Shown: in pieces, positions 17,852 to 63,422 of the stretch
Position numbering within the stretch: position 1 is the first letter of the stretch
Layout: each line of letters starts with the position of its first letter
Assembly: GCA_031581365.1 (NCBI GenBank)
Contig: JAVLBI010000006.1
Location: forward strand, 1,858-65,857
Reading direction: 5' to 3'
Source of the DNA: Spiribacter sp.
Lineage (GTDB): Bacteria > Pseudomonadota > Gammaproteobacteria > Nitrococcales > Nitrococcaceae
Length of the DNA stretch: 64,000 nucleotides
Program-made: the position numbers and the translations under genes
Notes under the pieces: generated by a model
The model's database searches: none
Told to the model about the DNA's origin: nothing
What the model saw: the letters and a program-made list of their open reading frames with translations, nothing else

Positions 17852-17854
17852 GGA

Positions 17855-18973: not shown

Positions 18974-19000
18974 ATCTGTCCTCCTCTGGCCGGCCGGTGT

Positions 19001-20422: not shown

Positions 20423-20445
20423 AATGACTCCCTAAATCGGTGGGC

Positions 20446-21714: not shown

Positions 21715-21734
21715 CAGCGCCTCGCTCTTTGACT

Positions 21735-47676: not shown

Positions 47677-50358
47677 ATGGCAGCAAGAATGAAGCCCATG
47701 CCCATTCCTGGCGATCCGGATCCAGAAGAGACTCAGGAGTGGCTCGAAGCTATCGAATCGGTTCTCGCATACGAGGGGCCGGAGCGTGCGCAGTTTTTGC
47801 TCGAGCGCCTCGTCGACACCACCCGCCGCCGTGGGGGCCAACTCCCGTTTAAAGCGACGACGGCCTATCAAAACACGATTCCCACTCAGCATGAGGTCCC
47901 ACATCCAGGTGATCGCGCGCTCGAGTCCCGCATTCGATCAATTATTCGCTGGAATGCCATGGCAATGGTGGTCCAAGCCAACCGTGATCGTGATGGTATT
48001 GGTGGCCACATTGCCTCGTTCGCTTCGTCTGCAACGCTCTATGAAATTGGCTTTAATCATTTCTGGCACGCGCCCACAGAAGATCACGGTGGCGATCTTG
48101 TCTTTATTCAAGGGCATTCCGCGCCCGGCATTTACGCCCGCGCCTTTCTTGAAGGCCGCTTAAATGAACAAGACCTGCACAATTTTCGCGCCGACCTGGC
48201 AAAGACTGGCAAACCGTTATCGTCCTATCCTCACCCGTGGTTAATGCCCGATTTCTGGCAGCTTCCTACGGTCTCGATGGGGCTTGGCCCCATTATGGGC
48301 GTCTATCAAGCGCGCTTTTTAAAATATCTGCATAACCGCGGCATCGCCGATACCTCAAATCGCAAGGTTTGGGTATTTTGTGGCGATGGCGAAATGGATG
48401 AGCCCGAGAGCTTGGGCGCCATCGGCGTGGCGGCACGTGAAGGCCTGGATAACCTTATTTTCGTCGTCAACTGCAACCTCCAACGCCTTGATGGACCCGT
48501 CCGTGGCAACGGCAAAATTATCCAAGAGCTTGAGGGTGAATTCCGCGGCGCTGGCTGGAATGCGATTAAGGTCATTTGGGGCGCTTACTGGGATCCATTG
48601 CTCGCCAAAGATACCAACGGACTGCTGCGCCGGCGCATGGAAGAAGCCGTGGATGGCGAGTATCAGAACTTCAAAGCGAAAGGCGGCGCCTACACGCGTG
48701 AGCACTTTTTTGGGAAATATCCCGAGCTAAAAGCCATGGTCGCGAACATGTCCGATGAGGATATCTGGCGTTTGAACCGCGGTGGCCATGACTCAAACAA
48801 GGTCTATAACGCCTATAAAGCAGCGACTGAGCATAAGGGCCAGCCCACCGTTATTTTGGCAAAAACGGTTAAAGGCTATGGCATGGGTGAGTCTGGCGAG
48901 GGCCAGAACATCACGCATCAGCAAAAGAAAATGGCAGAAAACGCGCTCAAGGAATTCCGCGATCGCTTCCATATTCCGGTTCCCGATGAAAAAGTCGCTG
49001 ACGCGCCTTTCTACAAACCGGCTGATGATTCACCAGAAATTCAGTACTTGCGGGAACGCCGCGAGGCCCTCGGCGGTTCTTTGCCAAAACGCAAGGTCAC
49101 AGCTAAAGCCCTCAAAGCACCTGATCTATCCGCATTTGACGTATTACTCAAAGACAGTGGCGAGCGCGAAATGTCCACAACGATGGCCTATGTTCGCGCA
49201 CTCTCCATTATCGCGCGCGATAAAACACTGGCCCCGCGGCTCGTTCCGATTGTTCCCGATGAAGCACGCACCTTTGGCATGGAGGGCTTGTTTCGCCAAA
49301 TTGGTATTTATGCCCACGACGGCCAGCTCTATGAGCCACAAGATGCCGATCAGTTGATGTACTACCGCGAAGACCAAAAAGGTCAGATTCTACAAGAGGG
49401 CATCAATGAAGCGGGCGCCATGTCGAGCTGGATTGCTGCGGCAACCGCTTACGCTAATCATGGCGTTGAGATGATTCCGTTCTATGCCTATTACTCAATG
49501 TTTGGCTTCCAGCGTGTTGGTGACTTGGCCTGGGCGGCTGGCGATATGCGAGCGAAGGGCTTTTTAATGGGTGGCACCGCAGGCCGCACCACGCTGAACG
49601 GCGAGGGCTTACAGCACGAAGACGGCCACAGCCACCTGCAAAGCGCCACCATCCCAAATTGCATTTCCTACGACCCCACATTCGCTTATGAAATGGCCGT
49701 CATCATTCAAGATGGCATGCGGCGGATGTACCAGGAGCAAGAATCCGTTTTCTACTACATCACCATGATGAATGAAAACTATCACCAGCCTGCGATGCCG
49801 AAAGGCGCCGAAGAGGGTATCCGTCGCGGCATGTATTTGCTGCAAAAAGGCGGCCGTGGCAAAAAACGCGTCCAGCTCATGGGGTCTGGCACCATTTTAA
49901 TTGAGGTGATGGCCGCCGCGGAGCTGCTCAAATCGGATTGGGGCATCGATAGCGATGTTTGGAGCTGTCCTAGCTTTACCGAGTTGCGCCGCGATGGCAT
50001 TGAGTGTGAGCGCTGGAATTTGCTGCATCCACAAGACCAACCTCGGGTCCCCTATGTCCGCCAATGCCTTGAGGGCCATGAAGGCCCTGCGGTGGCGTCA
50101 ACTGACTACATGCGGGCTTTCCCGGACCAGATTCGTCCTTACCTCGATCGCACCTTTGCAGTGCTGGGCACGGATGGCTACGGCCGCTCTGATACACGCG
50201 AGAACCTGCGTCGCTTCTTTGAGATTGATCGCCACTACGTAACGCTCGCGGCACTCAAAGCGCTGGCCGATGACGGCGTCATCAAACCTGATCAAGTCAG
50301 CAAGGCCATCGCCAAATACAACATCGACATCGACGCGCCCAACCCAAGCACCGTCTAA
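47677..50358 (+). CDS. aceE: Pyruvate dehydrogenase E1, homodimeric type
   Basis: DPDPEETQEWLEA, GGHIASFASSATL, QGHSAPGIYARAFLEGRL, GDGEMDEPES, NCNLQRLDGPV. Confidence 0.98.
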   Translation: MAARMKPMPIPGDPDPEETQEWLEAIESVLAYEGPERAQFLLERLVDTTRRRGGQLPFKATTAYQNTIPTQHEVPHPGDRALESRIRSIIRWNAMAMVVQANRDRDGIGGHIASFASSATLYEIGFNHFWHAPTEDHGGDLVFIQGHSAPGIYARAFLEGRLNEQDLHNFRADLAKTGKPLSSYPHPWLMPDFWQLPTVSMGLGPIMGVYQARFLKYLHNRGIADTSNRKVWVFCGDGEMDEPESLGAIGVAAREGLDNLIFVVNCNLQRLDGPVRGNGKIIQELEGEFRGAGWNAIKVIWGAYWDPLLAKDTNGLLRRRMEEAVDGEYQNFKAKGGAYTREHFFGKYPELKAMVANMSDEDIWRLNRGGHDSNKVYNAYKAATEHKGQPTVILAKTVKGYGMGESGEGQNITHQQKKMAENALKEFRDRFHIPVPDEKVADAPFYKPADDSPEIQYLRERREALGGSLPKRKVTAKALKAPDLSAFDVLLKDSGEREMSTTMAYVRALSIIARDKTLAPRLVPIVPDEARTFGMEGLFRQIGIYAHDGQLYEPQDADQLMYYREDQKGQILQEGINEAGAMSSWIAAATAYANHGVEMIPFYAYYSMFGFQRVGDLAWAAGDMRAKGFLMGGTAGRTTLNGEGLQHEDGHSHLQSATIPNCISYDPTFAYEMAVIIQDGMRRMYQEQESVFYYITMMNENYHQPAMPKGAEEGIRRGMYLLQKGGRGKKRVQLMGSGTILIEVMAAAELLKSDWGIDSDVWSCPSFTELRRDGIECERWNLLHPQDQPRVPYVRQCLEGHEGPAVASTDYMRAFPDQIRPYLDRTFAVLGTDGYGRSDTRENLRRFFEIDRHYVTLAALKALADDGVIKPDQVSKAIAKYNIDIDAPNPSTV

Positions 50359-50382
50359 GGCTTGGGCGCAGGAGGAATTTGC

Positions 50383-51705
50383 GTGGCAGAGGTCAAAGAA
50401 ATCACCGTCCCAGACATTGGCGATTTTGATGCGGTGGACGTCATTGAAGTATTGGTCGGCCCTGGCGATCGCGTCGAGGCCGAAGACTCGCTGATTACGC
50501 TTGAGAGCGACAAGGCAACCATGGAAGTGCCCGCTCCCTTCGGCGGTGTCATCAAAGAGATATTGATCAAGCCCGGCGATAAGGTCGCAGAGGGCACAAC
50601 GGTCGCACAGGTGGAAGTGAGCGACGATGCGGCGGCTCAATTCGCTGCTGAGCCTGAACAAGCACCGGAACCAGAAAAAACGACGCCAGCTCCTGAGCCG
50701 GCTGAACCGCCTGAGCCGACTGAACCCGTCCAAGCCGCAGTACCCGCCGCCACGACAGCTGCACAAACCCCGCTGAATGCTGACACGCAACGCTTAGCGC
50801 ATGCCGGGCCATCGGTACGGCGCTTTGCGCGTGAGCTTGGAGTTGCCTTGGATCAAGTCAGCGGTAGTGGCCCTAAAGGCCGAATCACCCGCGAAGATGT
50901 GCAGGCCGTTGTCAAATCGGTAATGGACTCGGGCGGTGTTGCGCCCGCCGCAGCAGCAACCGGCAGTGCCGGCATCCCAGCGATTCCTGAGGTGGATTTC
51001 AGCAAGTTTGGGCCGGTGGAAGAAATCGACTTACCGCGCATTAAACGCCTATCTGGCCCGCATCTTCATCGCAGCTGGTTAAACATCCCGCATGTCACTC
51101 AGTTTGATGAAGCTGATATCACTGAACTTGAGGCCTTTCGCAAGGAGCAAAAAACCGCGGCAGAAAATGCCGGCGTTAAGCTCACACCCCTTGCGTTTAT
51201 GGTGAAAGCCGCTGCCGCAGCGCTAACTGAATTTCCTGATTTCAATAGCTCGCTACGTCGTGATGAGGCGGCTCTGATTCGCAAGCACTACATCAACATT
51301 GGCGTTGCTGTCGACACCCCCCAAGGCTTAGTCGTACCGGTCATCAAAAATGCCGACCAAAAGGGCCTATATGCGATCGCCGCTGACTTAAGCGAACTCT
51401 CAACGAAGGCTCGTGATGGCAAACTGGGGCCTAGCGAAATGCAAGGCGGAACGTTTAGTATTTCAAGCCTTGGCGGCATTGGTGGTACGGCATTCACGCC
51501 CATTATCAATGCGCCTGAAGTCGCCATATTGGGCATTTCAAAATCATCAATGAAACCCATTTGGAATGGGAGTGAGTTTGCACCGCGGCTTATGCTGCCG
51601 CTGAGCCTGTCTTACGACCACCGGGTGATTGATGGCGCCGCAGCCGCTCGCTTTAGCGCCTACTTAACCGGCGTATTGAGTGATTTGCGCCGCCTTATCC
51701 TCTAA
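50383..51705 (+). CDS. aceF: Dihydrolipoamide acetyltransferase (E2p) with a single lipoyl domain
   Basis: VPDIGDFD...[36 protein letters not shown]; GTG 50383 after GGAGGA. Confidence 0.96.
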
Positions 51706-51725
51706 CGCTCAAAGGATCGCGATTC

Positions 51726-53489
51726 ATGTCACAAGCCAAAGAAGTCCGCGTCCCCGACATTGGTGACTTTGATGCGGTGGAAATCATTGAAGTGCTCGTG
51801 GCCCCCGGCGACTCAATTGAAGCCGAGGCATCGCTGATTACGCTTGAGAGCGATAAGGCGACCATGGAAGTGCCTGCGCCGTTTAATGGCATCATTGAGA
51901 CACTCAAGGTGAACGTCGGCGATAAGGTTGCCGAAGGCGATATTATTGCCACCGCCGTGCCCGAAGAGGCTAGCGATACCACAGAAACGCACGCGAGCGA
52001 CCAAAGCAGCGCACCCACAGAACCCTCTGCTGCTAGCGAAAAAGCACCCACGGCCTCAGCAGAATCAGCACCCGCCGATGCCGACTGCGATGTGGTGGTT
52101 ATCGGGGCTGGTCCCGGAGGTTATAGCGCGGCTTTTCGTGCCGCTGACCTAGGCTTAAAAACGATCCTCATCGAGCGCTTCCCTAATTTGGGCGGCGTTT
52201 GCTTGAATGTCGGCTGCATCCCTTCTAAAGCGCTTTTGCATGCAGCAAAGGTCATCGATGAGGCGGAATCTTTTGCGGATCACGGCATCAAATTTGGTAA
52301 GCCAAAAATTGATCTAAAAAAGCTTGAGGCATGGAAATCTAGCGTTGTGGGCAAGCTCACCGGCGGCCTAGTCGGTCTTGCCAAGCAGCGTGACGTTGAG
52401 GTCATTACCGGCCCCGCTCAGTTTGTTGATGACTATCACCTTAAAGTCACAACCAAGGATGGTGAGCGCAGCATTACCTTTGCTAATGCCATTATCGCGG
52501 CGGGCTCACGTCCGGTCGCCCCCCCTGGGTTCGACCTTGACCACCCCCGGATCATGGATTCCACCGACGCCCTTGAGCTTGAGGAAATCCCCAAACGCCT
52601 GTTAGTGGTCGGTGGCGGTATTATTGGTCTAGAGATGGCATCGGTCTATCACGCCCTAGGCAGCGAGATTAGCGTGGTTGAACTTGCTGATCGCGTGATG
52701 GCCGGTGCCGATCCGGATATCGTTAAGCCGTATAAGAAATTGATCGATAAGCGCTATGCCAATGTCTTTCTCAACACCAAAGTGGCCGCAGTAAAACCCG
52801 ATGACAAAGGCGTAACGGTTGCGCTGGAAGGCGATAAAGCACCGGCTGAAGATCGCTTTGATCGGGTTTTAGTCTCGGTGGGCCGACGGCCTAATACCGA
52901 TTTACTTAACCTTGAGGCCACGGGAGTCAGCATGCTCGATAACGGCTGTATACAAGCCGATGCGCAAATGCGGACCCACATCCCACATATTTTTGCAATT
53001 GGCGACTTAATCGGCCAGCCGATGCTCGCGCACAAAGCGGTTCATGAGGGCAAAGTCGCCGCGGAGGTCGCTGCCGGCGAAAAGAGTGCGTTTGATGCCC
53101 GCGTTATTCCCTCCGTTGCCTATACCGACCCTGAAGTGGCGTGGGTTGGGGTAACCCAAGAGCAGGCCAAGGCTGACGGCCTAGATGTTGAGATTGCGAG
53201 CTTCCCTTGGGCCGCTAATGGCCGCTCGTTGGCGATAGGCCGTGATGAGGGCATTACCAAGCTCATCTTTGATCGTGACACCGAGCAAGTGGTTGGCGCC
53301 GGCATTATCGGACCAAACGCCGGTGATTTGATCGCCGAAGTCGGCCTTGCCATTGAGATGGGCGCCGACATGCACGATATTGGCTTAACAATCCACCCGC
53401 ACCCGACGCTCTCGGAGACGGTGGGAATGGCAGCCGAAGCGGCGGCTGGCACACTAACGGATCTCTACATTCCAAAGAAAAAACGCTGA
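51726..53489 (+). CDS. lpdA: Dihydrolipoamide dehydrogenase with an N-terminal lipoyl domain
   Basis: Lipoyl domain ([11 protein letters not shown]), linker, [30 protein letters not shown]. Confidence 0.96.
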
Positions 53490-53495
53490 GGTGAC

Positions 53496-54512
53496 ATGAG
53501 CAGAACCGCGACCGTTGTTGCCACAGGGCGCTGCCTTCCAGAGCGCCTTGTCAGTAACGACGAGCTGCGTGAGCGTTTTGCTCGCCACGAGCGCCCTGAG
53601 CTCATTGACCGCTTTGAGGAAAACTCGGGCATTAAACAGCGCTACTGGGCCGCCCCTGGCACCACCACATCCGACTTGGCGGCCACCGCTGCCAAGCAAG
53701 CGCTTGAACGCGCGAACTGCCAAGCGAGCGACCTTGATTTAATTATTCTTGGCACCGATACGCCCGATCAAATCACGCCCGCTACAAGCGTGATCTTACA
53801 AGAAAAATTGGGTGCCAAGGCCGCGGGCACCTTCGATGTCAGCTGCGCCTGCGCCTCTTTCCCAACCGCGCTTGCCAGTGCCGCCGGCCTCATCCAAACC
53901 AACCCCACGCTCAATCGCGTATTAGTCGTCGGGGCGTATTTAATGCATCGTCTGGCGGATGCTAATGATCCGATGCTGTTTTTTTATGGTGATGGCGCTG
54001 GGGCTGCCATTGTCGAGGCAAAAACCAACGCCCCCGGCCTATGCGCAAGCGCCTTTCTAGCGAATGGCGCTTATGCCAATTATTGGGGGATTACCGCGGG
54101 AGGCGCGCGTGAGCCCGCGAGTCATGCAGCGGTAACGGCCGGCCGCACCCAAGTCCACCTTGAAAAGCGTTATCCACCAGAACTCAACGAATTGGAATGG
54201 CCAAAACTCATGCATCGCTTAGCAAAGCAAGGCGAGTTCGAAATGGCTGATATTGATTTGGCCATATTCACCCAAGTCAACGCACAGAGTATTCAGCAAG
54301 TATGTGAGTCATTAGCGATCCCGAGCGAACGGGCGCCTAAGCTCATGGATCGCTACGGCTACACTGGCTCGGCTTGCGTCCCAATCGCGCTGGATCATGC
54401 CATCACAAGCGCTCAGGTGAGCGGCGGCGAGTTAGTCACACTGATTGGCTCTGGCGTAGGCTATAACATGGCAGGTGTAGCGTTTCGTCTGCCTGAGGAG
54501 ATGCCCGCATGA
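53496..54512 (+). CDS. KAS III (FabH)-fold protein with a non-canonical active site
   Basis: ATGRCLPERLVSN, GIKQRY, TDTPDQITPATS, FDVSCACASF, YGDGAGAA; FTQVN and YGYTGSA at the HQAN and GNTS positions. Confidence 0.85.
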   Translation: MSRTATVVATGRCLPERLVSNDELRERFARHERPELIDRFEENSGIKQRYWAAPGTTTSDLAATAAKQALERANCQASDLDLIILGTDTPDQITPATSVILQEKLGAKAAGTFDVSCACASFPTALASAAGLIQTNPTLNRVLVVGAYLMHRLADANDPMLFFYGDGAGAAIVEAKTNAPGLCASAFLANGAYANYWGITAGGAREPASHAAVTAGRTQVHLEKRYPPELNELEWPKLMHRLAKQGEFEMADIDLAIFTQVNAQSIQQVCESLAIPSERAPKLMDRYGYTGSACVPIALDHAITSAQVSGGELVTLIGSGVGYNMAGVAFRLPEEMPA

Positions 54513-57500
54513 GACAGGCCGACCCCCGTCGCAGTCAGCATTTAAATGCCTTGCTAGAGCGCGCGCAGGAACGCTGGCCAGCTGCTGAGGCGCCGCTTAT
54601 TAAGGATTTTTTATCTCATTACTATGCTGCGGTTGCGACCGAGGATTTTGCGAGCGCAGAGATTGCGAACCTCTACGGCGCAGCACTCTCACATTGCTCT
54701 CTCGGCGAACGCCGCGGGCCAGGCAAAACGGCCGTTAACGTTTACAACCCAGACCCAGAGCAAAACGGCTGGGAGTCAACCCACAGCGTAGTGCAAATTG
54801 TTACTGACGATCGACCGTTTTTAGTCGACTCACTGTCGATGGCCATTAACGAGCTTGGGGTTATGATCCATCTCATCATCCACCCGGTGCTGGAGGTCGC
54901 ACGCAATAAGCGCCACAAGATAACCGACGTTGGCGATCAGACAGCAGCGCATGGCGAGCCAGAGGCGTGGATTCATCTAGAAGTCGATCGCCAAAGCAAT
55001 GCGAAGCAACTTAAAGCGCTTAAAACACGCATTAACGCCTGTCTTAATGATGTCGAAGTCGCGGTCAATGACTGGCCGGCGATGCAAGCCCAAGCAAAAG
55101 ACGCCTTAGATGGCTTACGCCAACATCCAGCGGGCGCTAACGATGAGCATTGGCAGGAAATCGAGGCATTTTTGGAATGGCTACTTGATGATCATTTCAC
55201 CTTCCTTGGTTATCGTTGCTACGACGTACACCAGCGCAAAGGCCAAATCGAGCTGACCTCAGTTGATGAGACTGGCCTTGGTTTGCTGCGCACCGAGGGC
55301 AATGGCGCACAAGCATCTAAAAGCTTTCAGGCGCTGCCAGCAGCCTTACGCGAACAGGCACTTGATCCTGATCCACTTGTGCTCACTAAATCGAGCCATC
55401 GCTCAACGGTCCATCGCCGCGGCTATATGGATAGCGTTGGGATTAAGCGCTTTAACAAGAAAGGCAAAGTGATTGGCGAGCATCGCTTTTTAGGGCTGTT
55501 TACCTCCGGCGCGTATAGCCGCAACCCGCGCATTATTCCGCTGCTACGACGCAAGCTTGATGCGGTCTTAACGCGTGCCGGCTTACGCGCCAATAGCCAT
55601 GCTGGCAAAGCGCTCGCGCATATTCTCGAAACCTACCCACGCGATGAACTTTTCCAAATTGACTCGGACACGCTGCATCACAATGCCATTGGTATTTTGC
55701 AGCTCCAGGAGCGCCAACAAGTCCGCTTGTTCTTGCGCTATGACCGCTTTGGCCGTTTTGTCTCGTGTCTGGTGTACGCCCCGCGTGATCGCTACGACAC
55801 CGCGGTACGACAGCGCATGCAAGCTATTCTCACAGAGGCCTTTGATGGCGCTCACTCAGAATTTACTGTCCAGCTCTCAGAAGCGGTCTTAGCCCGCATT
55901 CATTTTATTATCCACTTTAGCGAAAACGCTGATCGGCAGGTGGATGCGGCTGAACTTGAGGCACAGCTTGCTGCCACCACCCGCTCTTGGCCTGATGATC
56001 TTGCCTATGCACTAATTGAGCATTGTGGCGAAGCACGGGGTAATCAGTTACATCACCGCTATGGCGAAGCGTTCAGCGCGGCTTACCGTGAAGACACCAC
56101 CCCACGGAATGCCGCCCAAGATATTGAGCGCTTAGAGTCACTGCCTCAGCATGCGGGCTTGGTGATTAGCCTGTATCGACCGCTTGAAGCGCCTAAGGGG
56201 AGTTTGCGCCTAAAGCTCTATCACGCCGGCGAGTCAATTAGCTTATCCGAGGTGTTGCCCGTGCTTGAGCACATGGGTGTGCGGGTGGTGGATGAACGGC
56301 CCTATGCCATTCGGCCACGACAGGATGAGCCTTGCTGGATTCATGACTTTGGCCTAGAACACGACCCCGACCTAGCGCTTGATGCCGGCCGGCTGCGGGA
56401 TGCCTTCCAACAAGCATTTGCCGCCATTTGGCGCGGCGAAACCGATGATGATGGCTTTAACCGACTGATCTTAATGGCCGGCCTTGAATGGCGTGAAATC
56501 GTTATTTTGCGCGCTTACGCCCAGTACCTTCGACAGGCAGGCACGGGCTATAGCCAGCCCTATATGGAAGACACCCTTGCCGCCAATCCAAAGATTGCGG
56601 CAGCGCTGGTCGCGCTTTTCGAACAGCGACTTCATCCTGACAAAGCGAATGAACCATCAGCGAAGCAAACGGTAAGCGAACTAGAAACTGAACTCGATGC
56701 CGTTGCAAGCCTAGATGAAGATCGCATCTTACGGCGCATACTAGCGGCTATTCTTGCCACGCTGCGTACCAACTATTACCGGGTTAATGAGGCAGGTGAA
56801 GCGCGAGATTTTGTCTCATTTAAGCTCCAACCAGATAGCATCCCCGGCGTGCCCAAACCGGTTCCCGCTTATGAAATCTTTATAAGCTCACCGCGTGTAG
56901 AGGGCGTCCACCTTCGCGGCGGAAAAGTCGCTCGTGGCGGACTCCGCTGGTCGGATCGGCGCGAGGATTATCGCACCGAAATTCTCGGGCTTATGAAAGC
57001 GCAAATGGTTAAAAATGCGCTCATCGTCCCCGTTGGAGCCAAAGGCGGTTTTGTTTGTAAACAACTCCCCCGAGATCGCAGCGAACAGCCCCAAGAGGTG
57101 CTTGCGTGTTACCGCCTCTTTATTAGCGGACTATTAGATCTCACCGACAATATTGTTGATGCCAAAGTCATGCCGCCGCCACAGGTGATTCGGCATGATG
57201 GCGATGACCCGTATCTTGTGGTCGCCGCGGATAAGGGCACAGCGACCTTTTCTGACGAAGCCAATGCGCTCGCCGAGGCGTATCACTTTTGGTTACATGA
57301 CGCTTTCGCCTCTGGCGGTTCAACGGGCTATGATCACAAAAAAATGGGGATTACCGCCCGCGGTGCGTGGGTGGCGGTTCAGCGTCATTTCCGTGAGCTT
57401 GGCCGCGATATTCAGCATGAGCCATTTACCGCTGTTGGTATTGGTGACATGTCAGGTGATGTATTTGGCAACGGCATGCTGCAGTCTCGCAGCACGCGTT

Positions 57501-59341
57501 TAGTAGCGGCTTTTGACCATCGACATATCTTTATTGACCCCAACCCCGATGCCGAGCGCAGTTATGCCGAGCGTGAGCGGTTGTTTTCATTAAACCGCTC
57601 GAGCTGGGACGATTATGATGCGGGCGTCATCTCTGAGGGCGGCGGAATATGGCCGCGCAGCGCAAAATCCATTCGCCTGTCAGCGAACGCCCAAGCCGCC
57701 CTTGGTATTAACAGCGAACGCCTAACGCCAATTGAGCTCATTAGCGCAATTTTGTGCGCACCGGTTGATCTGCTCTGGAATGGCGGGATTGGCACGTATA
57801 TTAAGGCAGCACAAGAAAGCCACGCCGATGTTGGTGATAAAGGCAACGATAACCTCCGCGTCGATGCCGAAGCGCTTCGCTGTCAGGTCATAGGCGAGGG
57901 CGGCAATCTAGGCGTCACACCACTGGGCCGCATCGCTTTTGCACTCACCGGTGGCAAAGTGAATAGTGATGCAATTGATAACTCAGGCGGCGTGGATTGC
58001 TCCGACCATGAGGTCAATATCAAAATTCTCATGAACGGCGTCGTTGATGACGGTGATTTAACGGTCAAACAGCGCAATCGTCTTTTAGCCGACATGACCG
58101 ATGCAGTCGCTGATCATGTCTTGGCCAATAATTACCGCCAAACGCAAGGCTTAAGCCTAATGGTAGAGCGTTCGGCCGGACAGATTACCGAGCAAACTCG
58201 CTACATGCGTTTACTCGAGCGCGCCGGGCGGCTTGATCGCGCGGTTGAACAACTGCCCGATGACGAAACACTCGCCGAGCGCCAACAACAGGGCCTTGGG
58301 CTTGCGCGTCCTGAACTCTCAATCGTCTTAGCCTATGCCAAGATACATAGCTTTGAGCAGCTGCTTGAATCCGATTTAGTCGACGGCGAAGAAAATCTTG
58401 CCGATTTGCTGAGCTACTTTCCGCAACCATTGCGTGAGCGATTTAGCGCACGAATCGACTGCCATCCGCTACGGCGTGAAATAATCGCCACGAATCTGGC
58501 CAATCACATTCTCAATCGCATGGGCGCGACCTTTTTAATGCGTATGACAGAGACAACCGGTGCCAGCTTGGCCGAAGTGGCTCGGGCCTATCTGGCGGCG
58601 CGCGATATCTATGCACTCCGCACACTATGGCACCAAGTGGATGCCCTCGATAATCAAATCGATGCCGCCCACCAGTATCAGCTTCTAAGTGCGCTTTGCG
58701 AGCTCCAAGAGCGCGCCACTCTATGGTTATTGCGCCGCCAAACTGGCCCAATTGCGGCGCCAGCGGATATTGCCTCGCGGCATACCGCCATAGAAACGCT
58801 TGAGCGTGCCTTGCCCACGCTATTATCAGCATCGGATCATGCCCGGCTTCAAGCAAAACAAGACAAACATCAGGCCGCCGGCGTTCCCGAGGCACTCGCA
58901 TCACACATTAGCCGATTGCCGAGTTTGTATTTGGCGTTGGATATTAGTGAAGCCGCGCAAAATAGCATGGCCAAACTCGAAGATGCTGCCCGCGTGCATT
59001 TCGGCGCCGCCGAGGTGCTGGGCTTGGGGGGGTATCGTGAGCTGCTCAACACCTTCACTCCGGCGGATGATTGGCAGGCGCGTTATCGCGATGGCCTATT
59101 AGAGGCGTTGCATGATGAACAACGTCATCTCACGCAAACTATCCTGGCCGAGACCCCTGGCGACGATCCAGACCAATGCCTTAATGCTTGGGCCGAGCAA
59201 CAGGCTGAGCGCATTGAGCCGTTTCGGCAAACCGTGGAGCAAGTCTGCGCTGCCGCCCAGCCCGACACCGCCATGCTCGGCGTTGTTATGCAGCAACTCC
59301 AACAATTGGCCACTAGCCCATCGGCTGAGTTATCCGCATGA
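54509..59341 (+). CDS. gdhB: Large NAD-specific glutamate dehydrogenase
   Basis: 1610 aa; GVHLRGGKVARGGLRWSDR, KNALIVPVGAKGGF, VVAADKGTATFSD, GYDHKKMGITARGAW, GIGDMSGDVFGNG. Confidence 0.95.
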   Translation: MRQADPRRSQHLNALLERAQERWPAAEAPLIKDFLSHYYAAVATEDFASAEIANLYGAALSHCSLGERRGPGKTAVNVYNPDPEQNGWESTHSVVQIVTDDRPFLVDSLSMAINELGVMIHLIIHPVLEVARNKRHKITDVGDQTAAHGEPEAWIHLEVDRQSNAKQLKALKTRINACLNDVEVAVNDWPAMQAQAKDALDGLRQHPAGANDEHWQEIEAFLEWLLDDHFTFLGYRCYDVHQRKGQIELTSVDETGLGLLRTEGNGAQASKSFQALPAALREQALDPDPLVLTKSSHRSTVHRRGYMDSVGIKRFNKKGKVIGEHRFLGLFTSGAYSRNPRIIPLLRRKLDAVLTRAGLRANSHAGKALAHILETYPRDELFQIDSDTLHHNAIGILQLQERQQVRLFLRYDRFGRFVSCLVYAPRDRYDTAVRQRMQAILTEAFDGAHSEFTVQLSEAVLARIHFIIHFSENADRQVDAAELEAQLAATTRSWPDDLAYALIEHCGEARGNQLHHRYGEAFSAAYREDTTPRNAAQDIERLESLPQHAGLVISLYRPLEAPKGSLRLKLYHAGESISLSEVLPVLEHMGVRVVDERPYAIRPRQDEPCWIHDFGLEHDPDLALDAGRLRDAFQQAFAAIWRGETDDDGFNRLILMAGLEWREIVILRAYAQYLRQAGTGYSQPYMEDTLAANPKIAAALVALFEQRLHPDKANEPSAKQTVSELETELDAVASLDEDRILRRILAAILATLRTNYYRVNEAGEARDFVSFKLQPDSIPGVPKPVPAYEIFISSPRVEGVHLRGGKVARGGLRWSDRREDYRTEILGLMKAQMVKNALIVPVGAKGGFVCKQLPRDRSEQPQEVLACYRLFISGLLDLTDNIVDAKVMPPPQVIRHDGDDPYLVVAADKGTATFSDEANALAEAYHFWLHDAFASGGSTGYDHKKMGITARGAWVAVQRHFRELGRDIQHEPFTAVGIGDMSGDVFGNGMLQSRSTRLVAAFDHRHIFIDPNPDAERSYAERERLFSLNRSSWDDYDAGVISEGGGIWPRSAKSIRLSANAQAALGINSERLTPIELISAILCAPVDLLWNGGIGTYIKAAQESHADVGDKGNDNLRVDAEALRCQVIGEGGNLGVTPLGRIAFALTGGKVNSDAIDNSGGVDCSDHEVNIKILMNGVVDDGDLTVKQRNRLLADMTDAVADHVLANNYRQTQGLSLMVERSAGQITEQTRYMRLLERAGRLDRAVEQLPDDETLAERQQQGLGLARPELSIVLAYAKIHSFEQLLESDLVDGEENLADLLSYFPQPLRERFSARIDCHPLRREIIATNLANHILNRMGATFLMRMTETTGASLAEVARAYLAARDIYALRTLWHQVDALDNQIDAAHQYQLLSALCELQERATLWLLRRQTGPIAAPADIASRHTAIETLERALPTLLSASDHARLQAKQDKHQAAGVPEALASHISRLPSLYLALDISEAAQNSMAKLEDAARVHFGAAEVLGLGGYRELLNTFTPADDWQARYRDGLLEALHDEQRHLTQTILAETPGDDPDQCLNAWAEQQAERIEPFRQTVEQVCAAAQPDTAMLGVVMQQLQQLATSPSAELSA

Positions 59342-60138
59342 GTGAAACCGTCCCTCTCGCTCATCAAATCAGTGGCGATGACGCTGCGCCGGCATTGGTG
59401 TTTTTGCACGGGCTATATGGTGCCGGCAATAATTGGCGTGGTATTACGCCCGCATTTATAACCGCCTACCAAGTAATCTTGCCAGATTTACGCAGCCACG
59501 GCCGCTCGCCGCATCACCCGCGGATGGACTACCGTGATATGGCTGCTGATGTTGTGGCGCTATTGCAAGCCAAGGGGATTACCAAGGCCCATGTAGTCGG
59601 ACATAGCATGGGCGGTAAAGTAGCAATGGCAATGGCTTTAACCGCTCCTGATCGAGTGGCTAAACTTGCAGTGGTGGACATCGCACCAATCGCCTATGAC
59701 CACGCGCATGAGCATGGCGGTATTATTCAAGCGATGGAGACCATGGACTTAGCCTCGTTGCGAGATCGTCGTGATGCCGATGCCGCGCTTGCCAAAGACA
59801 TTGCTGAGCCAGTGGTGCGGCAATTTTTGCTCACCAACCTAGAGCACAGCAATGAAGGCTGGCAGTGGCGGTTGCCGCTTTCGATTTTGGCTGATCAACT
59901 CGGCGTTCTAGAGGGCTGGCCAACGATGACGGCCGCCGCCTGGCAGGGAAACGCCTATTTTATGTATGGCGGGGCATCAGACTATGTGGAGGATGAGGGT
60001 CGTCGGGCCATAAAAACGTTTTTCCCGACGGCTGAACTGGAATGCTTTAACGAAGCTGGGCACTGGGTACACGCCGAAGCTAGGGCAGACTTTACCCAAC
60101 GACTCAGCGAGTTTTTAGCAAAAGACAATAAAAACTGA
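59338..60138 (+). CDS. YbfF/ABHD11-type alpha/beta hydrolase (esterase/thioesterase)
   Basis: FLHGLYGAGNNW, PDLRSHGRSPH, GHSMGGKVAM nucleophile elbow, VVDIAP, RQFLLTNL, AGHWVHAE. Confidence 0.85.
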   Translation: MSETVPLAHQISGDDAAPALVFLHGLYGAGNNWRGITPAFITAYQVILPDLRSHGRSPHHPRMDYRDMAADVVALLQAKGITKAHVVGHSMGGKVAMAMALTAPDRVAKLAVVDIAPIAYDHAHEHGGIIQAMETMDLASLRDRRDADAALAKDIAEPVVRQFLLTNLEHSNEGWQWRLPLSILADQLGVLEGWPTMTAAAWQGNAYFMYGGASDYVEDEGRRAIKTFFPTAELECFNEAGHWVHAEARADFTQRLSEFLAKDNKN

Positions 60139-60156
60139 GCAAAGGAACACAGACCC

Positions 60157-62448
60157 ATGGCAGAGGATTTTAAACACAGCGCGCTGGAATACCACCGTTA
60201 TCCCACGCCCGGCAAAATAGAAGTCGCTCCGACAAAACCGCTAGCCAACCAGCGTGATTTAGCGCTGGCCTACAGCCCCGGCGTGGCAGCGGCTTGCGAG
60301 GCGATTGCTGAGGATGAGCGTGAAGCTGCCAATTTAACGGCTCGCGGTAATTTGGTGGGCGTAATTACCAACGGCACCGCCGTGCTTGGCCTAGGCGCCA
60401 TTGGCCCGCTCGCCTCCAAGCCGGTCATGGAAGGTAAGGGTGTGTTGTTTAAAAAGTTTGCCGGCATCGATGTGTTCGATATTGAAATCAATGAAACCGA
60501 TGCCGATAAACTCGTTGAGACCATTGCTCGGCTTGAGCCTACGTTTGGTGGTATCAACCTCGAGGACATTAAGGCGCCCGAGTGCTTTGAAGTCGAAGCG
60601 AAGCTGCGCGAGCGCATGAATATCCCCGTATTTCATGATGACCAGCATGGCACGGCAATTACGGCAGCAGCGGCGATCTACAATGGCTTACGTCTCGTTG
60701 GCAAGCGTTTTGAGGAGGTAAAACTCGTAACCTCAGGCGCCGGCGCCTCAGCGGTGGCCTGCCTTGATTTGCTCGTCTCAATGGGCCTAAAACCTGAGAA
60801 CATCATCGTTACTGACCGCCAAGGCGTCATCTATAAGGGCCGCACAGAATACATGGATGAGCGCAAAGGCGTTTATGCCGCCGATACCGACGCCCGCACA
60901 TTAGCTGATGCGCTACCCGGAGCAGATATCTTTCTTGGTTTATCCGCCCCCGGTGTGCTGAGTGGCGAAATGGTTGCCAGCATGGCGGATAAACCCATGA
61001 TCATGGCACTTGCCAACCCAACGCCAGAAATTTGGCCGGAGGATGCACTCGCGGCAAAACCTGATGCGATCATCTCAACAGGGCGCTCGGATTACCCCAA
61101 TCAAGTCAATAATGTGCTCTGTTTTCCGTTCATTTTCCGTGGTGCATTGGATGTGGGCGCAACCACCATTAATGACGAAATGAAAAAGGCCTGCGTGCGT
61201 GCCATTGCCGATTTGGCCACACTCGAGTCATCCGATGTTGTGGTCGCGGCCTACGGCGGCAAACCTCTGTCCTTTGGTGCCGATTACCTCATTCCTAAGC
61301 CCTTTGATCCGCGCTTAATTACCCGCATTGCGCCCGAAGTAGCCCGCGCCGCCATGGAAAGTGGTGTTGCCACCCGGCCTATTACCGATTTCATTGCCTA
61401 CCGCCGACGTCTATCGGATTATGTCTTCCAGTCAGGCCTGCTGATGAAGCCGCTTTTTGAGCGCGCTAGCCAGAACCCCAAACGCGTGGTTTACGGAGAT
61501 GGTGAGGATGAGCGGATACTTCAAGCCATCCAGGTGGTCATCGACGATAGCCTAGCCAAGCCCATTATTATTGGCCGTCGGCGTGTCGTCGAAATGCGCG
61601 TTAAGCGCTTAGGTCTGCGGCTGAACCTGGAAACGGATCTTGAGTTAGTCGACCCCGAGGATGACCCCCGCTTTAAAGCGTACTGGCAGCTCTACCACTC
61701 GCTTATGGAGCGGCGCGGCGTCAGTCCTGATCGTGCGCGGCAAATTGTACGCACCCGCAACACGGTCATTGCCGCATTAATGGTCCGCCGTGGCGAAGCC
61801 GATGCGGTGCTATCTGGCGCCATTGGTAAGTACCACCGGCATCTGGATTACGTGAATGAAGTACTAGGACGGCGTACGGGCGTACGTAACTTAGCAGCAA
61901 TGAACGCCATTATTTCACCCAAGGGGACACTGTTTTTATGTGACACCTATGTCAACCAAGACCCCAGTGCTCATCAAATTGCAGAAATGACCGTGCTTGC
62001 GGCTGATGAAATCCGCCGCTTTGGTATGGAGCCAAAAGTAGCACTGCTCTCGCATAGCAACTTCGGTAGTTCAGATGCACAAGATGCGATAAAGATGCGT
62101 GAGGCCCTGCAGCTTATTCAAGACCGTGACTCCAGTCTTGAAGTCGATGGTGAGATGCACGGCGATGCCGCGCTCAATGAAGAAATTCGTCGACGTATTT
62201 TCCCCAACTCACACCTCGAGGGACAAGCGAATCTGCTGATCATGCCCACGCTAGATGCCGCAAATATTGCCTTTAACCTGCTAAAAACGGTCACTGATGC
62301 CGTGTCCATCGGGCCCATTACACTTGGCATGTCGAGGCCCGCGCATATCCTGACACCCTCGGTTACCGTTCGCGGCGTGGTTAACCTGACAGCACTTGCC
62401 TGTGTAGAGGCGGCGATGGCTGAAGATAAAGAGGAAAAAACACCATGA
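60157..62448 (+). CDS. maeB: NADP-dependent malic enzyme with a PTA-like C-terminal domain
   Basis: [64 protein letters not shown]. Confidence 0.96.
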
Positions 62449-63422
62449 CTGAGGCGATATGTGTTCACGCATTTGGCGGACCTGAAGCACTAAAACAGGA
62501 AACAATCGAGGTTGGCGAGCCTGGCCCTGGCCAAATTCGTCTGCGCCAGACCCATATTGGTGTTAACTACATCGATGTTTATTTTCGTAATGGTGTGTAT
62601 CAGCCGGCAGCCATGCCGTTTACACCTGGCGTAGAGGCGGCTGGCGAGATCACTGCCGTCGGCGCGGGCGTTAGCGGTCTCAAATGCGGCCAACGTGTCG
62701 CTTATGCGGCCCGGCCGCCAGGCGCTTACACGAGTGATCGGGTGATCGCTGCCGATAGTGTAGTGGCCTTGCCCGATGAACTCTCCAATGCCCAAGCCGC
62801 CGCCATGATGCTCAAAGGCATGACCGCTTATATGTTGCTCGCGCAGGTGTATACCGTACGCGCTGGCGATAGCGTGCTCATCCATGCTGCAGCTGGCGGT
62901 GTTGGGCTAATTGCTTGCCAATGGGCTCGGCATCTTGGCGCGACCGTTATTGGGACGGTGGGCAGCGCTGAAAAAGCTGAGCTTGCCAAAGCCCATGGTT
63001 GTCATCATCCCATTCTCTATCGCGACGAAGCCCTCGTTGAGCGGGTTAACGCGATTACTAAGGGCGCTGGCGTCGCCGCGGTCTACGATTCAGTGGGCGC
63101 CGATACGCTAAAAGATTCTCTAGCCTGCTTAGCTCGCCGCGGCATGTTAGTGAGCTTTGGTCAGTCCTCGGGCAAACCACCTGCGATTGAAGTCGGTGAG
63201 CTTGCCGCTGGCGGTTCGCTATTTCTAACTCGACCGACGCTTTTTGATTACATTAACGAGCCAGCCGCATTACAGGCGTCAGCCAACGCCTTATTTGAAG
63301 TGGTTCGCGCTGGTGCGGTCAATATTTGTGTAGGGGGCGAATGGCCACTGGCTCAGGCCGCTGATGCGCACCGCGCCCTCGAAGCCCGGCAAACGACCGG
63401 GTCATCTTTGTTGGTGGTCTAG
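62445..63422 (+). CDS. qor: NADPH:quinone oxidoreductase (zeta-crystallin family)
   Basis: GVNYIDVYFRNG, LIHAAAGGVG, VSFGQSSG, GSLFLTRPTL, RQTTGS. Confidence 0.92.
   Translation: MTEAICVHAFGGPEALKQETIEVGEPGPGQIRLRQTHIGVNYIDVYFRNGVYQPAAMPFTPGVEAAGEITAVGAGVSGLKCGQRVAYAARPPGAYTSDRVIAADSVVALPDELSNAQAAAMMLKGMTAYMLLAQVYTVRAGDSVLIHAAAGGVGLIACQWARHLGATVIGTVGSAEKAELAKAHGCHHPILYRDEALVERVNAITKGAGVAAVYDSVGADTLKDSLACLARRGMLVSFGQSSGKPPAIEVGELAAGGSLFLTRPTLFDYINEPAALQASANALFEVVRAGAVNICVGGEWPLAQAADAHRALEARQTTGSSLLVV

What the first reader, a model, noticed from the sequence alone, without database searches (positions are those of the whole stretch)
59338..60138. YbfF/ABHD11-type hydrolase in the PDH run: candidate bacterial lipoyl-arm repair system with the variant KAS III
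Seen: YbfF-like motifs with intact Ser (GHSMGG) and His (GHWVH), translationally coupled to gdhB, downstream of two lipoyl-domain genes. Known: the human homologue ABHD11 associates with 2-oxoglutarate dehydrogenase and prevents inactivating adducts on its lipoyl arm; the physiological substrate of bacterial YbfF is not established to my knowledge. Inference: this hydrolase, perhaps with the Cys-only KAS III, removes or transfers wrong acyl groups (e.g. propionyl, succinyl, glutaryl) from lipoyl domains of PDH/OGDH. The cell also encodes prpCD, so it probably handles propionyl-CoA.
Basis: inference. Interest (0 to 1): 0.65.

Follow-up and report, generated by a model that had tools for sequence, protein, structure and literature searches.

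The report
ABHD11/YbfF-type hydrolase inside a PDH operon
This gene encodes an intact bacterial relative of human ABHD11, an enzyme shown in 2025 to strip stray acyl groups off the lipoic-acid arm of 2-oxoacid dehydrogenases. In one deep branch of Gammaproteobacteria it lies directly behind the pyruvate dehydrogenase genes, which makes the same repair role a plausible, testable but still unproven function for the long-uncharacterised bacterial YbfF esterases.

Summary
ORF 59338-60138 (+) encodes a 266-aa alpha/beta hydrolase with an intact Ser90 (GHSMGG), Asp114 and His242 (GHWVH). Its ATG overlaps the gdhB stop (ATGA). It sits in a tightly packed eight-gene run: aceE-aceF-lpd-KASIII variant-gdhB-hydrolase-maeB-qor.

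The protein belongs to a single family with E. coli YbfF (1.5e-42), the esterase of PDB entry 7c4d (2e-46; model TM 0.93) and ABHD11 (36% identity, 2e-51). A 2025 paper showed ABHD11 to be a glutaryl-lipoyl thioesterase.

In 27 of 160 family loci (about 21 lineages in Chromatiales and Acidiferrobacterales) the hydrolase follows the PDH lpd on the same strand, in 13 of them less than 140 bp after the lpd stop. OGDH genes are almost never nearby. E. coli and most other taxa show no such link.

The link looks like one or two ancient events that were then kept. Part of it may be plain synteny, because argG is also a recurrent neighbour.

The proposed partnership with the Cys-only KAS III is not supported. 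That gene is confined to Ectothiorhodospiraceae and stays next to lpd even where the hydrolase has moved away.

My best reading is an S-acyl-dihydrolipoyl thioesterase serving PDH, with confidence about 0.45. I found no paper making this bacterial connection.

The parts
59338..60138 (+). YbfF/ABHD11-family alpha/beta hydrolase, 266 aa (the finding)
   Evidence: The AF2 model has pLDDT 95.4 and TM 0.93 to 7c4d.
59605..59607 (+). Codon of the nucleophile Ser90 in the GHSMGG elbow
   Evidence: Sequence. Invariant in 88 of 88 family members. Equivalent to EcYbfF S89 and to S134 of the gorilla ABHD11 isoform (human S141) (PMC12643935).
59677..59679 (+). Codon of Asp114 (VVDIAP), the predicted acid of the triad, at the end of the strand that precedes the cap
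   Evidence: Invariant in 88 of 88. Equivalent to EcYbfF D113 and ABHD11 D158.
60061..60063 (+). Codon of His242 (GHWVH)
   Evidence: Invariant in 88 of 88. Equivalent to EcYbfF H234 and to H289 of the gorilla ABHD11 isoform (human H296).
59338..59341 (+). ATGA overlap of the gdhB stop and the hydrolase start (translational coupling)
   Evidence: The gdhB end and hydrolase start also overlap by 4 bases in Spiribacter L001.
47677..50358 (+). aceE, PDH E1 (893 aa)
   Evidence: Homologues at 65-83% identity lie upstream of the hydrolase in related loci.
50362..51705 (+). aceF, PDH E2 with one lipoyl domain
   Evidence: TIGR01348 at 609.6 bits, above its cutoff. Pfam Biotin_lipoyl + E3_binding + 2-oxoacid_dh.
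51726..53489 (+). lpd, E3 with an N-terminal lipoyl domain (587 aa)
   Evidence: TIGR01350 at 528 bits. Biotin_lipoyl at residues 5-76.
53496..54512 (+). KAS III (FabH)-like protein that keeps Cys117 but has Thr259 and Tyr289 in place of the catalytic His and Asn
   Evidence: Lineage-specific insert between lpd and the hydrolase.
54509..59341 (+). gdhB, large NAD-specific glutamate dehydrogenase (1610 aa). Its start overlaps the KAS III stop (ATGA).
   Evidence: Homologues carry Pfam Bac_GDH_CD and GDH_ACT domains. Overlap shown.
60157..62448 (+). maeB, NADP malic enzyme with a PTA-like domain, starting 18 bp after the hydrolase stop
   Evidence: Also beside the hydrolase in L082, L083, L088, L092 and L099.
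62445..63422 (+). qor, NADPH:quinone reductase, ATGA overlap with maeB; last gene of the run
   Evidence: NF008024 at 354 bits. Overlap shown.
63384..63402 (+). The best-scoring + strand terminator-like hairpin of the scan, overlapping the end of qor. The other + strand hits all lie inside coding sequences, not in a gap between genes of the run.
   Evidence: This is a consensus match only.

Best explanation
The gene encodes a serine hydrolase of the YbfF/ABHD11 family. I propose that it acts as an S-acyl-dihydrolipoyl thioesterase, a proofreading deacylase for the lipoyl swinging arms of the pyruvate dehydrogenase complex (AceF and the lipoyl domain on Lpd), and possibly in trans for the OGDH E2.

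Proposed mechanism. Ser90, activated by His242 and Asp114, attacks the thioester of an arm carrying an acyl group that E2 cannot pass to CoA. Such groups could arise from E1 acting on a non-cognate 2-oxoacid, from the reverse E2 reaction, or from chemical acylation by reactive acyl-CoAs. The acyl-enzyme is then hydrolysed, a free acid leaves, and the freed dihydrolipoyl arm is re-oxidised by Lpd. The helical cap (about residues 120-195), with the family-wide Arg144, Arg161, Asn167 and Trp177, would form the substrate crevice.

What is shown: the family membership, the intact triad, the fold, and the operon context and its conservation. What is inferred: the substrate, by homology to ABHD11 and from gene context.
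For: (1) Family. E. coli YbfF matches at 1.5e-42 and 7c4d at 2.1e-46. Gorilla ABHD11 (P0121) is 36% identical over 256 aa, E 2e-51. The AF2 model (pLDDT 95.4) has TM 0.93 to 7c4d and 0.88 to YbfF, followed by a large gap to every other hydrolase. The NJ tree of 88 members roughly follows taxonomy, which suggests one vertically inherited family.

(2) ABHD11 is experimentally a glutaryl-lipoyl thioesterase on OGDHc-E2. Adducts also rise on PDHc-E2 when it is inhibited. It is inactive on glutaryl-CoA, needs Ser141 and His296, and was modelled on 7c4d (PMC12643935).

(3) The cap-helix motif VRQxLLTNL, including Arg161 and Asn167, is shared with ABHD11 and with 92-95% of the family, but has diverged in E. 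coli YbfF.

(4) Context. The hydrolase lies downstream of the PDH lpd on the same strand in 14 of 80 genome loci and 13 of 80 metagenome loci (counts, which include two marginal genome loci: L013, where the 'lpd' match is the aceF lipoyl domain, and L019, where lpd lies 9 kb away). It starts less than 140 bp after the lpd stop in 13 of the 27. The 27 loci form 21 clusters at >=55% hydrolase identity, with a median pairwise identity of 43%. They include Ectothiorhodospiraceae, Sedimenticolaceae, Chromatiaceae and Acidiferrobacteraceae.

(5) No terminator-like site lies in the lpd-hydrolase gap in L016 or L031, or in any gap between genes of the window's eight-gene run, which contains three ATGA overlaps.

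(6) The only other NCBIfam family that aligns over the whole length is the AcoC-type acetoin-dehydrogenase E2, a lipoyl domain fused to an alpha/beta hydrolase domain (PRK14875, 1e-28, residues 12-262).
Against: There is no biochemical or genetic evidence for any bacterial member. YbfF is listed among E. coli thioesterases 'with unclear physiological function' (PMC11367265).

The linkage is confined to one, though deep, gammaproteobacterial clade and probably reflects one or two ancient events. 133 of 160 loci, including E. coli (fur-fldA-ybfE-ybfF/seqA-pgm), show no link.

argG, which has no obvious functional relation to PDH, also recurs just downstream of the hydrolase, in 6 of 16 linked lineages and in 5 unlinked loci. 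Part of the conservation may therefore be synteny by descent.

In the window itself two genes (5.8 kb) separate lpd from the hydrolase, which is coupled to gdhB and not to a PDH gene.

ABHD11 prefers OGDHc-E2, yet the window's own sucA-sucB-lpd operon (19001-24572, -) carries no hydrolase, and OGDH genes are near the hydrolase in only 1-2 of 160 loci.

Databases also name ABHD11 a diacylglycerol lipase.

The protein scores below the NCBIfam YbfF equivalog cutoff.
Confidence: 0.45

Rival explanations
1. It is a short-chain or dicarboxylic acyl-CoA thioesterase (or broad esterase) that adjusts the acyl-CoA/free-CoA balance at the pyruvate-acetyl-CoA node. Co-expression with PDH, GdhB and MaeB would serve to release CoA, and the enzyme would never touch the lipoyl arm.
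For: [quoted passage not shown] From my own recollection, not checked here, general enzymatic screens found activity on palmitoyl- and malonyl-CoA. There is a weak Pfam Thioesterase hit. The PDH-operon context fits a CoA-pool role as well as a lipoyl role.
Against: The one member with a defined physiological substrate, ABHD11, did not hydrolyse glutaryl-CoA, and CoA docked poorly in its pocket (PMC12643935). The window protein shares the ABHD11 cap motif more closely than E. coli YbfF does.
Confidence: 0.2
2. It is a housekeeping esterase or lipase with no functional tie to PDH. Its place behind lpd is inherited synteny within one clade, and the ATGA coupling to gdhB is only operon packing.
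For: The linkage maps to essentially one clade in the family tree. The unrelated argG is also a recurrent neighbour. Other taxa have quite different neighbours, such as pdxJ or seqA-pgm. Insertions of KAS III, gdhB, ubiU/V-like genes and pgm between lpd and the hydrolase are tolerated. ABHD11 is also named a diacylglycerol lipase.
Against: Same-strand adjacency with gaps of less than 140 bp persists in lineages whose hydrolases are only about 35-45% identical to each other, while almost everything else around the locus differs. No terminator-like site lies in the gap where I checked.
Confidence: 0.2
3. It is an AcoC-like acyltransferase: a stand-alone alpha/beta-hydrolase catalytic domain that moves acyl groups from the lipoyl domain on Lpd to CoA or another acceptor. 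With Lpd's N-terminal lipoyl domain it would form a split second E2.
For: NCBIfam PRK14875 (AcoC-type E2, a lipoyl domain plus an alpha/beta hydrolase) aligns over residues 12-262, whereas most of the other listed non-YbfF families match only the N-terminal 100-150 residues. In most linked loci the upstream Lpd is about 575-620 aa long and so carries an extra lipoyl domain.
Against: The 100-bit score is far below the 307-bit family cutoff. Four linked loci (L007, L010, L018, L069) give Lpd matches or ORFs of only about 450-494 aa, i.e. without the lipoyl domain. ABHD11 acts as a hydrolase.
Confidence: 0.08

Closest known systems
Human ABHD11 (mitochondrial serine hydrolase; glutaryl-lipoyl thioesterase, Nat Chem Biol 2025, PMC12643935)
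   Same: 36% identity over the whole mature domain, E 2e-51. Same Ser/Asp/His positions and the same cap-helix motif RQxLLTNL. The same best structural template, 7c4d. Both are associated with a lipoylated 2-oxoacid dehydrogenase: physically and functionally for ABHD11, by operon context here.
   Different: ABHD11 has a mitochondrial presequence and acts mainly on OGDHc-E2. Here the linkage is to PDH, and the OGDH operon in the same window lacks a hydrolase. Activity is untested for the bacterial protein.
E. coli YbfF (PDB 3bf7/3bf8), esterase/thioesterase of unclear physiological role
   Same: Same family and fold: 1.5e-42, TM 0.88, and triad S89/D113/H234 equivalent to S90/D114/H242.
   Different: ybfF lies between ybfE-fldA-fur and seqA-pgm, with no dehydrogenase nearby. 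Its cap residues differ from the family consensus (I159, S165 and F166 in place of Arg, Asn and Leu). The window protein scores 195.8 bits against the 399-bit cutoff of the YbfF equivalog model.
PDB 7c4d, 'marine microorganism esterase'
   Same: Closest solved structure: 2.1e-46 by sequence and TM 0.93, rmsd 1.3 A over 261 columns.
   Different: In the records I saw it is described only as an esterase, and no physiological substrate or genomic context is known to me.
AcoC-type E2 of the acetoin dehydrogenase system (NCBIfam PRK14875)
   Same: Its alpha/beta-hydrolase domain aligns over the full length of the window protein (1e-28) and is a precedent for this fold handling acyl-lipoyl thioesters.
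   Different: AcoC carries its own fused lipoyl domain and is described as an acetyltransferase. The window ORF has no lipoyl domain, and the score is below the family cutoff.
Type II (editing) thioesterases of PKS/NRPS systems
   Same: A functional analogy only: alpha/beta-hydrolase thioesterases that clear wrongly acylated swinging-arm cofactors. This rests on established knowledge and was not tested here.
   Different: They act on phosphopantetheine arms of carrier proteins and belong to a different alpha/beta subfamily. The only Pfam Thioesterase hit here is below cutoff.

Membership tests
YbfF/ABHD11 subfamily of alpha/beta hydrolases | Alpha/beta-hydrolase core with a helical cap, closest in fold to YbfF and 7c4d | tested here: met
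   The AF2 model has pLDDT 95.4. Foldseek gives TM 0.93 to 7c4d and 0.87-0.88 to 3bf7/3bf8. The next hit is at E 6.5e-18, compared with 1e-27 to 1e-31 for these.
YbfF/ABHD11 subfamily of alpha/beta hydrolases | Nucleophile elbow G-H-S-M-G-G with Ser, His in G-H-W-x-H, and the acid Asp in the (V/I)-D-I-(A/S)-P motif before the cap | tested here: met
   S90, D114 and H242 are present and invariant in 88 of 88 aligned members, including EcYbfF and three ABHD11 proteins.
YbfF/ABHD11 subfamily of alpha/beta hydrolases | Full-length sequence similarity to both named members | tested here: met
   EcYbfF 1.5e-42 over residues 19-249. Gorilla ABHD11 2e-51 over residues 11-260.
YbfF/ABHD11 subfamily of alpha/beta hydrolases | NCBIfam PRK10673 equivalog score cutoff (399 bits) | tested here: not met
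   195.8 bits. It is the best-scoring family by far, but the window protein is not an 'equivalog' of the enterobacterial protein by NCBI's threshold.
ABHD11-type lipoyl thioesterase (function) | Hydrolysis of acyl-(glutaryl-)dihydrolipoyl thioesters on E2 lipoyl domains, with no activity on the matching acyl-CoA | not testable with these tools
   Needs an enzyme assay. Shown only for human ABHD11 (PMC12643935).
ABHD11-type lipoyl thioesterase (function) | Association with a lipoylated 2-oxoacid dehydrogenase complex | tested here: inconclusive
   The genomic association with PDH genes is real: 27 of 160 loci in about 21 lineages. It is clade-limited and may be partly synteny. Physical association cannot be tested here.
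AcoC-type E2 (NCBIfam PRK14875) | N-terminal lipoyl domain fused to the hydrolase domain; score of at least 307 bits | tested here: not met
   The ORF has no Biotin_lipoyl hit and scores 100.4 bits.
BioH pimeloyl-ACP methyl ester esterase (the name JGI gives many homologues) | Score above the BioH model cutoffs | tested here: not met
   TIGR01738 scores 49.9 bits against a cutoff of 206.95, and PRK10349 scores 42.5 against 449. Both match the N-terminal part only.
FabH / KAS III condensing enzymes (for the neighbouring gene 53496-54512) | Cys-His-Asn catalytic triad needed for decarboxylative condensation | tested here: not met
   Cys117 is kept, but the His position is Thr259 and the Asn position is Tyr289, invariant in 14 homologues. 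The scores are below the FabH cutoffs.

The most novel reading that the evidence does not exclude
The whole YbfF/ABHD11 family, from bacteria to mitochondria, is an ancient proofreading thioesterase for lipoyl swinging arms. This would be a previously unrecognised accessory component of 2-oxoacid dehydrogenase complexes, analogous to type II editing thioesterases for carrier proteins. In Chromatiales and Acidiferrobacterales it is still wired into the PDH operon. That would give E. coli YbfF a physiological function and show that lipoyl-adduct repair predates mitochondria.
Probability: 0.35. Interest if true: 0.75.

Novelty: new member of a known kind. Interest (0 to 1): 0.55.

Why it matters
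Lipoyl-arm deacylation was described only in 2025, for human ABHD11, and neither ABHD11 paper mentions bacterial relatives. The bacterial homologue YbfF has had a crystal structure since 2008 but still has no physiological role.

Finding the family member embedded in PDH operons across many divergent gammaproteobacterial lineages gives independent, non-mammalian support for a link between this family and lipoylated dehydrogenases. It also points to tractable bacterial systems, and to PDH rather than OGDH as a client, for working out the substrate range and mechanism.

If the idea is wrong, the gene is an ordinary esterase in a conserved neighbourhood.

Tried and rejected
(1) BioH, MenH, PcaD, RutD and similar assignments. 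All score far below their cutoffs and mostly match only the N-terminal half. Rejected.

(2) Hydrolase plus Cys-only KAS III as a two-gene system. Rejected as a general system. The KAS III variant occurs between lpd and the hydrolase only in Spiribacter-like genomes and Arhodomonas. It follows lpd without the hydrolase in Alkalilimnicola. Elsewhere it sits with SDR, AMP-binding and thiolase genes.

(3) Linkage to OGDH. I searched with the window's own SucA, SucB and Lpd2. Only L118 (sucA, opposite strand, 4.5 kb away) and L144 (an E2, opposite strand) came up among 160 loci. Rejected.

(4) qor as a meaningful recurrent neighbour. About 30% identical MDR-family hits occur near the hydrolase in several unrelated taxa. 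By my own rough estimate, which I did not compute, this is about what a large paralogous family would give by chance.

(5) Co-transcription evidence. Two metatranscriptome runs from a salt-lake sample that holds this genome gave only sparse contigs on aceE, lpd, gdhB, maeB and qor, and none on the hydrolase. Uninformative.

(6) Literature. No paper in the held library contains both 'YbfF' and 'pyruvate dehydrogenase'. A search on lipoyl, thioesterase, bacteria, adduct and repair gave nothing relevant.

(7) The human ABHD11 sequence I recalled from memory was used only as a search probe. All comparisons used the database protein P0121 that the search returned.


Full report
**Observation.** The ORF at 59338-60138 (+) encodes 266 aa. 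It contains GHSMGG (residues 88-93, Ser90 at 59605-59607) and GHWVH (residues 241-245, His242 at 60061-60063). Its ATG overlaps the TGA of the 1610-aa gdhB, giving ATGA.

It lies in a same-strand run of eight genes:
- aceE 47677-50358
- aceF 50362-51705, with one lipoyl domain
- lpd 51726-53489, with an N-terminal lipoyl domain
- a KAS III-like gene 53496-54512
- gdhB 54509-59341
- the hydrolase 59338-60138
- maeB 60157-62448
- qor 62445-63422

The gaps between genes are 0-20 bp, and three junctions are ATGA overlaps. No terminator-like site falls in a gap between genes of the run. The best-scoring + strand candidate overlaps the end of qor at 63384-63402.

**What the protein is.** Pfam gives Abhydrolase_1. 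The best NCBIfam family is PRK10673 'esterase' (YbfF) at 195.8 bits, which is below its 399-bit equivalog cutoff. Against the PDB the top hits are 7c4d (2.1e-46) and E. coli YbfF 3bf7/3bf8 (about 1e-42), with everything else at 1e-16 or worse. An AlphaFold model (pLDDT 95.4) superposes on 7c4d at TM 0.93 and rmsd 1.3 A, and on YbfF at TM 0.88, again with a clear gap to other hydrolases.

To compare with ABHD11, I used a recalled human sequence only as a search probe. Its length and its Ser141/His296 positions agreed with the paper. The comparison itself used the database protein the search returned, gorilla ABHD11 (P0121): 36% identity over 256 aa, E 2e-51.

I aligned 88 family members: 83 bacterial loci, the window protein, E. 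coli YbfF and three ABHD11 proteins. Ser90, Asp114 and His242 are invariant in all of them. The neighbour-joining tree roughly follows taxonomy: ABHD11 groups with alphaproteobacterial and actinobacterial sequences, and YbfF with Alteromonadaceae and Marinobacter. This is what one vertically inherited family would look like. The cap-helix motif VRQFLLTNL, with Arg161 and Asn167, matches ABHD11 (VRQHLLTNL) and 92-95% of the family, but has diverged in E. coli YbfF.

**What is now known about the family.** Grice et al. (Nat Chem Biol 2025, PMC12643935) have since shown the following:
- Adducts also rise on PDHc-E2 when ABHD11 is inhibited.
- The enzyme does not hydrolyse glutaryl-CoA.
- Ser141 and His296 are needed for activity.
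- The enzyme was modelled on 7c4d, the same structure that is closest to the window protein.

Neither ABHD11 paper mentions bacteria. E. coli YbfF is still annotated 'esterase' and is listed among thioesterases 'with unclear physiological function' (PMC11367265). No paper in the held library contains both YbfF and pyruvate dehydrogenase.

**The linkage test.** I fetched 80 family loci from species-representative genomes and 80 from metagenome contigs, each with up to 10 kb of flank. I searched them with the window's proteins.
- The hydrolase lies downstream of a PDH-type lpd on the same strand in 14 of 80 and 13 of 80 loci, 27 in all. In nearly all of these loci, aceE and/or aceF are also detected upstream of lpd wherever the contig reaches far enough.
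- Two of the 14 genome loci are marginal. In L013 the 'lpd' match is the aceF lipoyl domain, so the order there is aceE-aceF-x-x-hydrolase. In L019 lpd lies 9 kb away.
- In 13 loci the hydrolase match begins less than 140 bp after the lpd stop.
- In L016 and L031 no terminator-like site lies in that gap.
- The 27 loci fall into 21 clusters at >=55% hydrolase identity, with a median pairwise identity of 43% and a minimum of 35%. They are about as far from each other as from ABHD11.
- Named hosts are Spiribacter, Halorhodospira and Arhodomonas (Ectothiorhodospiraceae), Candidatus Thiodiazotropha and other Sedimenticolaceae, Chromatiaceae and Acidiferrobacteraceae. In NCBI taxonomy these are Chromatiales and Acidiferrobacterales.
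- De novo clustering of all neighbours in the genome sample put lpd, aceF and aceE among the most frequent neighbour families, together with argG.
- aceE is normally a single gene in a genome of a few megabases. That is my own estimate, not computed here. A random gene would then fall within 10 kb of it well under 1% of the time, against about 16% observed.

**Limits of the linkage.**
- In the tree the linked loci form essentially one clade, plus L031 and L013. The arrangement probably arose once or twice and was then kept.
- Most other taxa show no link. This includes Halomonas, Marinobacter, Azospirillum, Bacteroidota, Actinomycetota and E. coli, where the order is fur-fldA-ybfE-ybfF/seqA-pgm.
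- argG recurs just downstream of the hydrolase in 6 of 16 linked lineages and in five unlinked gammaproteobacterial loci. Some of the conservation is therefore synteny by descent.
- The link is to PDH and not to OGDH. The window carries its own sucA-sucB-lpd(-prpC-prpD) run at 16403-24572 (-) without a hydrolase. Only 1-2 of 160 loci have an OGDH gene within 10 kb.

**The window's own lineage.** In Ectothiorhodospiraceae, genes have been inserted between lpd and the hydrolase:
- KAS III variant + gdhB in the window and in Spiribacter (L001).
- pgm (opposite strand) + KAS III + gdhB in Arhodomonas (L083).
- Two U32-peptidase genes + an SCP2 gene + gdhB in Halorhodospira (L082).

In Alkalilimnicola the block is split. 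gdhB and the hydrolase sit together away from PDH (L081), while the KAS III variant remains directly behind aceF-lpd (L084). The gdhB-hydrolase-maeB trio is the locally conserved unit (also in L088). maeB also neighbours the hydrolase, in convergent orientation, in L092 and L099.

**The KAS III variant.** It keeps Cys117 but has Thr259 and Tyr289 where FabH has the catalytic His and Asn. These substitutions are invariant in 14 homologues of 57-74% identity. It is therefore a conserved Cys-only family, presumably an acyltransferase rather than a condensing enzyme, by analogy with KAS III-like acyltransferases (PMC9573744). Outside Ectothiorhodospiraceae it sits next to SDR, AMP-binding, thiolase and other hydrolase genes. 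It is absent from all other PDH-hydrolase loci. Its association is with lpd in one family, not with the hydrolase, so the proposed two-gene repair system is not supported.

**Most likely function.** Three lines of evidence point the same way:
- full-length homology to the only family member with a defined physiological substrate;
- the shared cap motif;
- long-retained, same-strand, short-gap adjacency to aceE-aceF-lpd.

I therefore think the most likely role is an S-acyl-dihydrolipoyl thioesterase that frees PDH lipoyl arms carrying acyl groups that E2 cannot discharge. My confidence is about 0.45. Which acyl groups are involved is unknown.

A further hint comes from the AcoC-type E2, a lipoyl domain fused to an alpha/beta-hydrolase domain. 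It is the only other NCBIfam family that aligns across the whole protein. The score is low, so this hint is weak.

The rivals are an acyl-CoA thioesterase tuning the CoA pool (0.2), a housekeeping esterase whose position is inherited synteny (0.2) and an AcoC-like transferase (0.08).

**Verdict.** The gene is a new bacterial member of a known kind, the YbfF/ABHD11 hydrolases. Its conserved PDH-operon context does not appear in the literature I could search. It makes the physiological role of bacterial YbfF directly testable. The evidence is comparative only, so the functional claim remains a hypothesis.

Noticed in passing
window 53496-54512 (+); L001 4156-5169; L083 3996-5021; L084 3336-4334: A conserved Cys-only KAS III family (Cys117 kept, Thr259 and Tyr289 in place of the catalytic His and Asn, invariant in 14 homologues). 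It sits directly behind the PDH lpd in four Ectothiorhodospiraceae genera. In other taxa it lies beside SDR, AMP-binding, thiolase and hydrolase genes. Its function is unknown; it is probably an acyltransferase.
   Followed up: partly
window 16403-24572 (-): A second lipoyl-enzyme operon: sucA (21735-24572), sucB (20446-21714) and a second lpd without a lipoyl domain (19001-20422), followed on the same strand by prpC (17855-18973) and prpD (16403-17851). It contains no hydrolase.
   Followed up: partly
window 47677-63422 (+): Eight central-metabolism genes (aceE, aceF, lpd, KAS III variant, gdhB, hydrolase, maeB, qor) are packed with gaps of 0-20 bp and three ATGA stop/start overlaps, with no terminator-like site in any gap between genes. 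It looks like one operon of about 15.7 kb joining the pyruvate, 2-oxoglutarate and malate nodes.
   Followed up: partly
L008, L010, L013, L016, L019, L035, L044, L111, L130, L149 (downstream of the hydrolase): Argininosuccinate synthase (argG) recurs within 0-3 kb downstream of the hydrolase in many gammaproteobacterial loci, with or without PDH upstream. No functional reason is apparent, so it serves as a caution about synteny by descent.
   Followed up: partly
L002 4742-7975, L003 3335-6565, L033 4568-7798: In Candidatus Thiodiazotropha a PAS-GGDEF-EAL signalling protein of about 1077 aa, and a further ORF, are inserted between aceF and lpd within the PDH cluster.
   Followed up: no
L082 2669-5056: In Halorhodospira halophila two U32-peptidase genes and an SCP2 gene lie between lpd and gdhB. 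This looks like the UbiU/UbiV/UbiT trio of O2-independent ubiquinone synthesis; that is my recollection and was not tested.
   Followed up: no
PDB 6ynx chain t: After 7c4d and YbfF, the next closest solved structure is ATPTT2, an alpha/beta-hydrolase-fold subunit of the Tetrahymena mitochondrial ATP synthase (E 6.5e-18, TM 0.84). It may be an ABHD11-like protein recruited to a structural role.
   Followed up: no
window 58800-60400: Near-identical DNA is present in about 20 public runs labelled as lake water, salt or hypersaline lake, aquatic and soil metagenomes. The nearest named relatives of the hydrolase are Spiribacter and Arhodomonas at about 53-59% identity, so the organism is probably an undescribed genus of Ectothiorhodospiraceae, likely from saline habitats.
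   Followed up: partly
window 51726-53489 (+) and lpd genes of most linked loci: The E3 of the PDH cluster carries its own N-terminal lipoyl domain in most linked loci (Lpd of 575-620 aa). In L007, L010, L018 and L069 the Lpd matches or ORFs are only about 450-494 aa, so the extra lipoyl domain is not required for the hydrolase linkage.
   Followed up: partly
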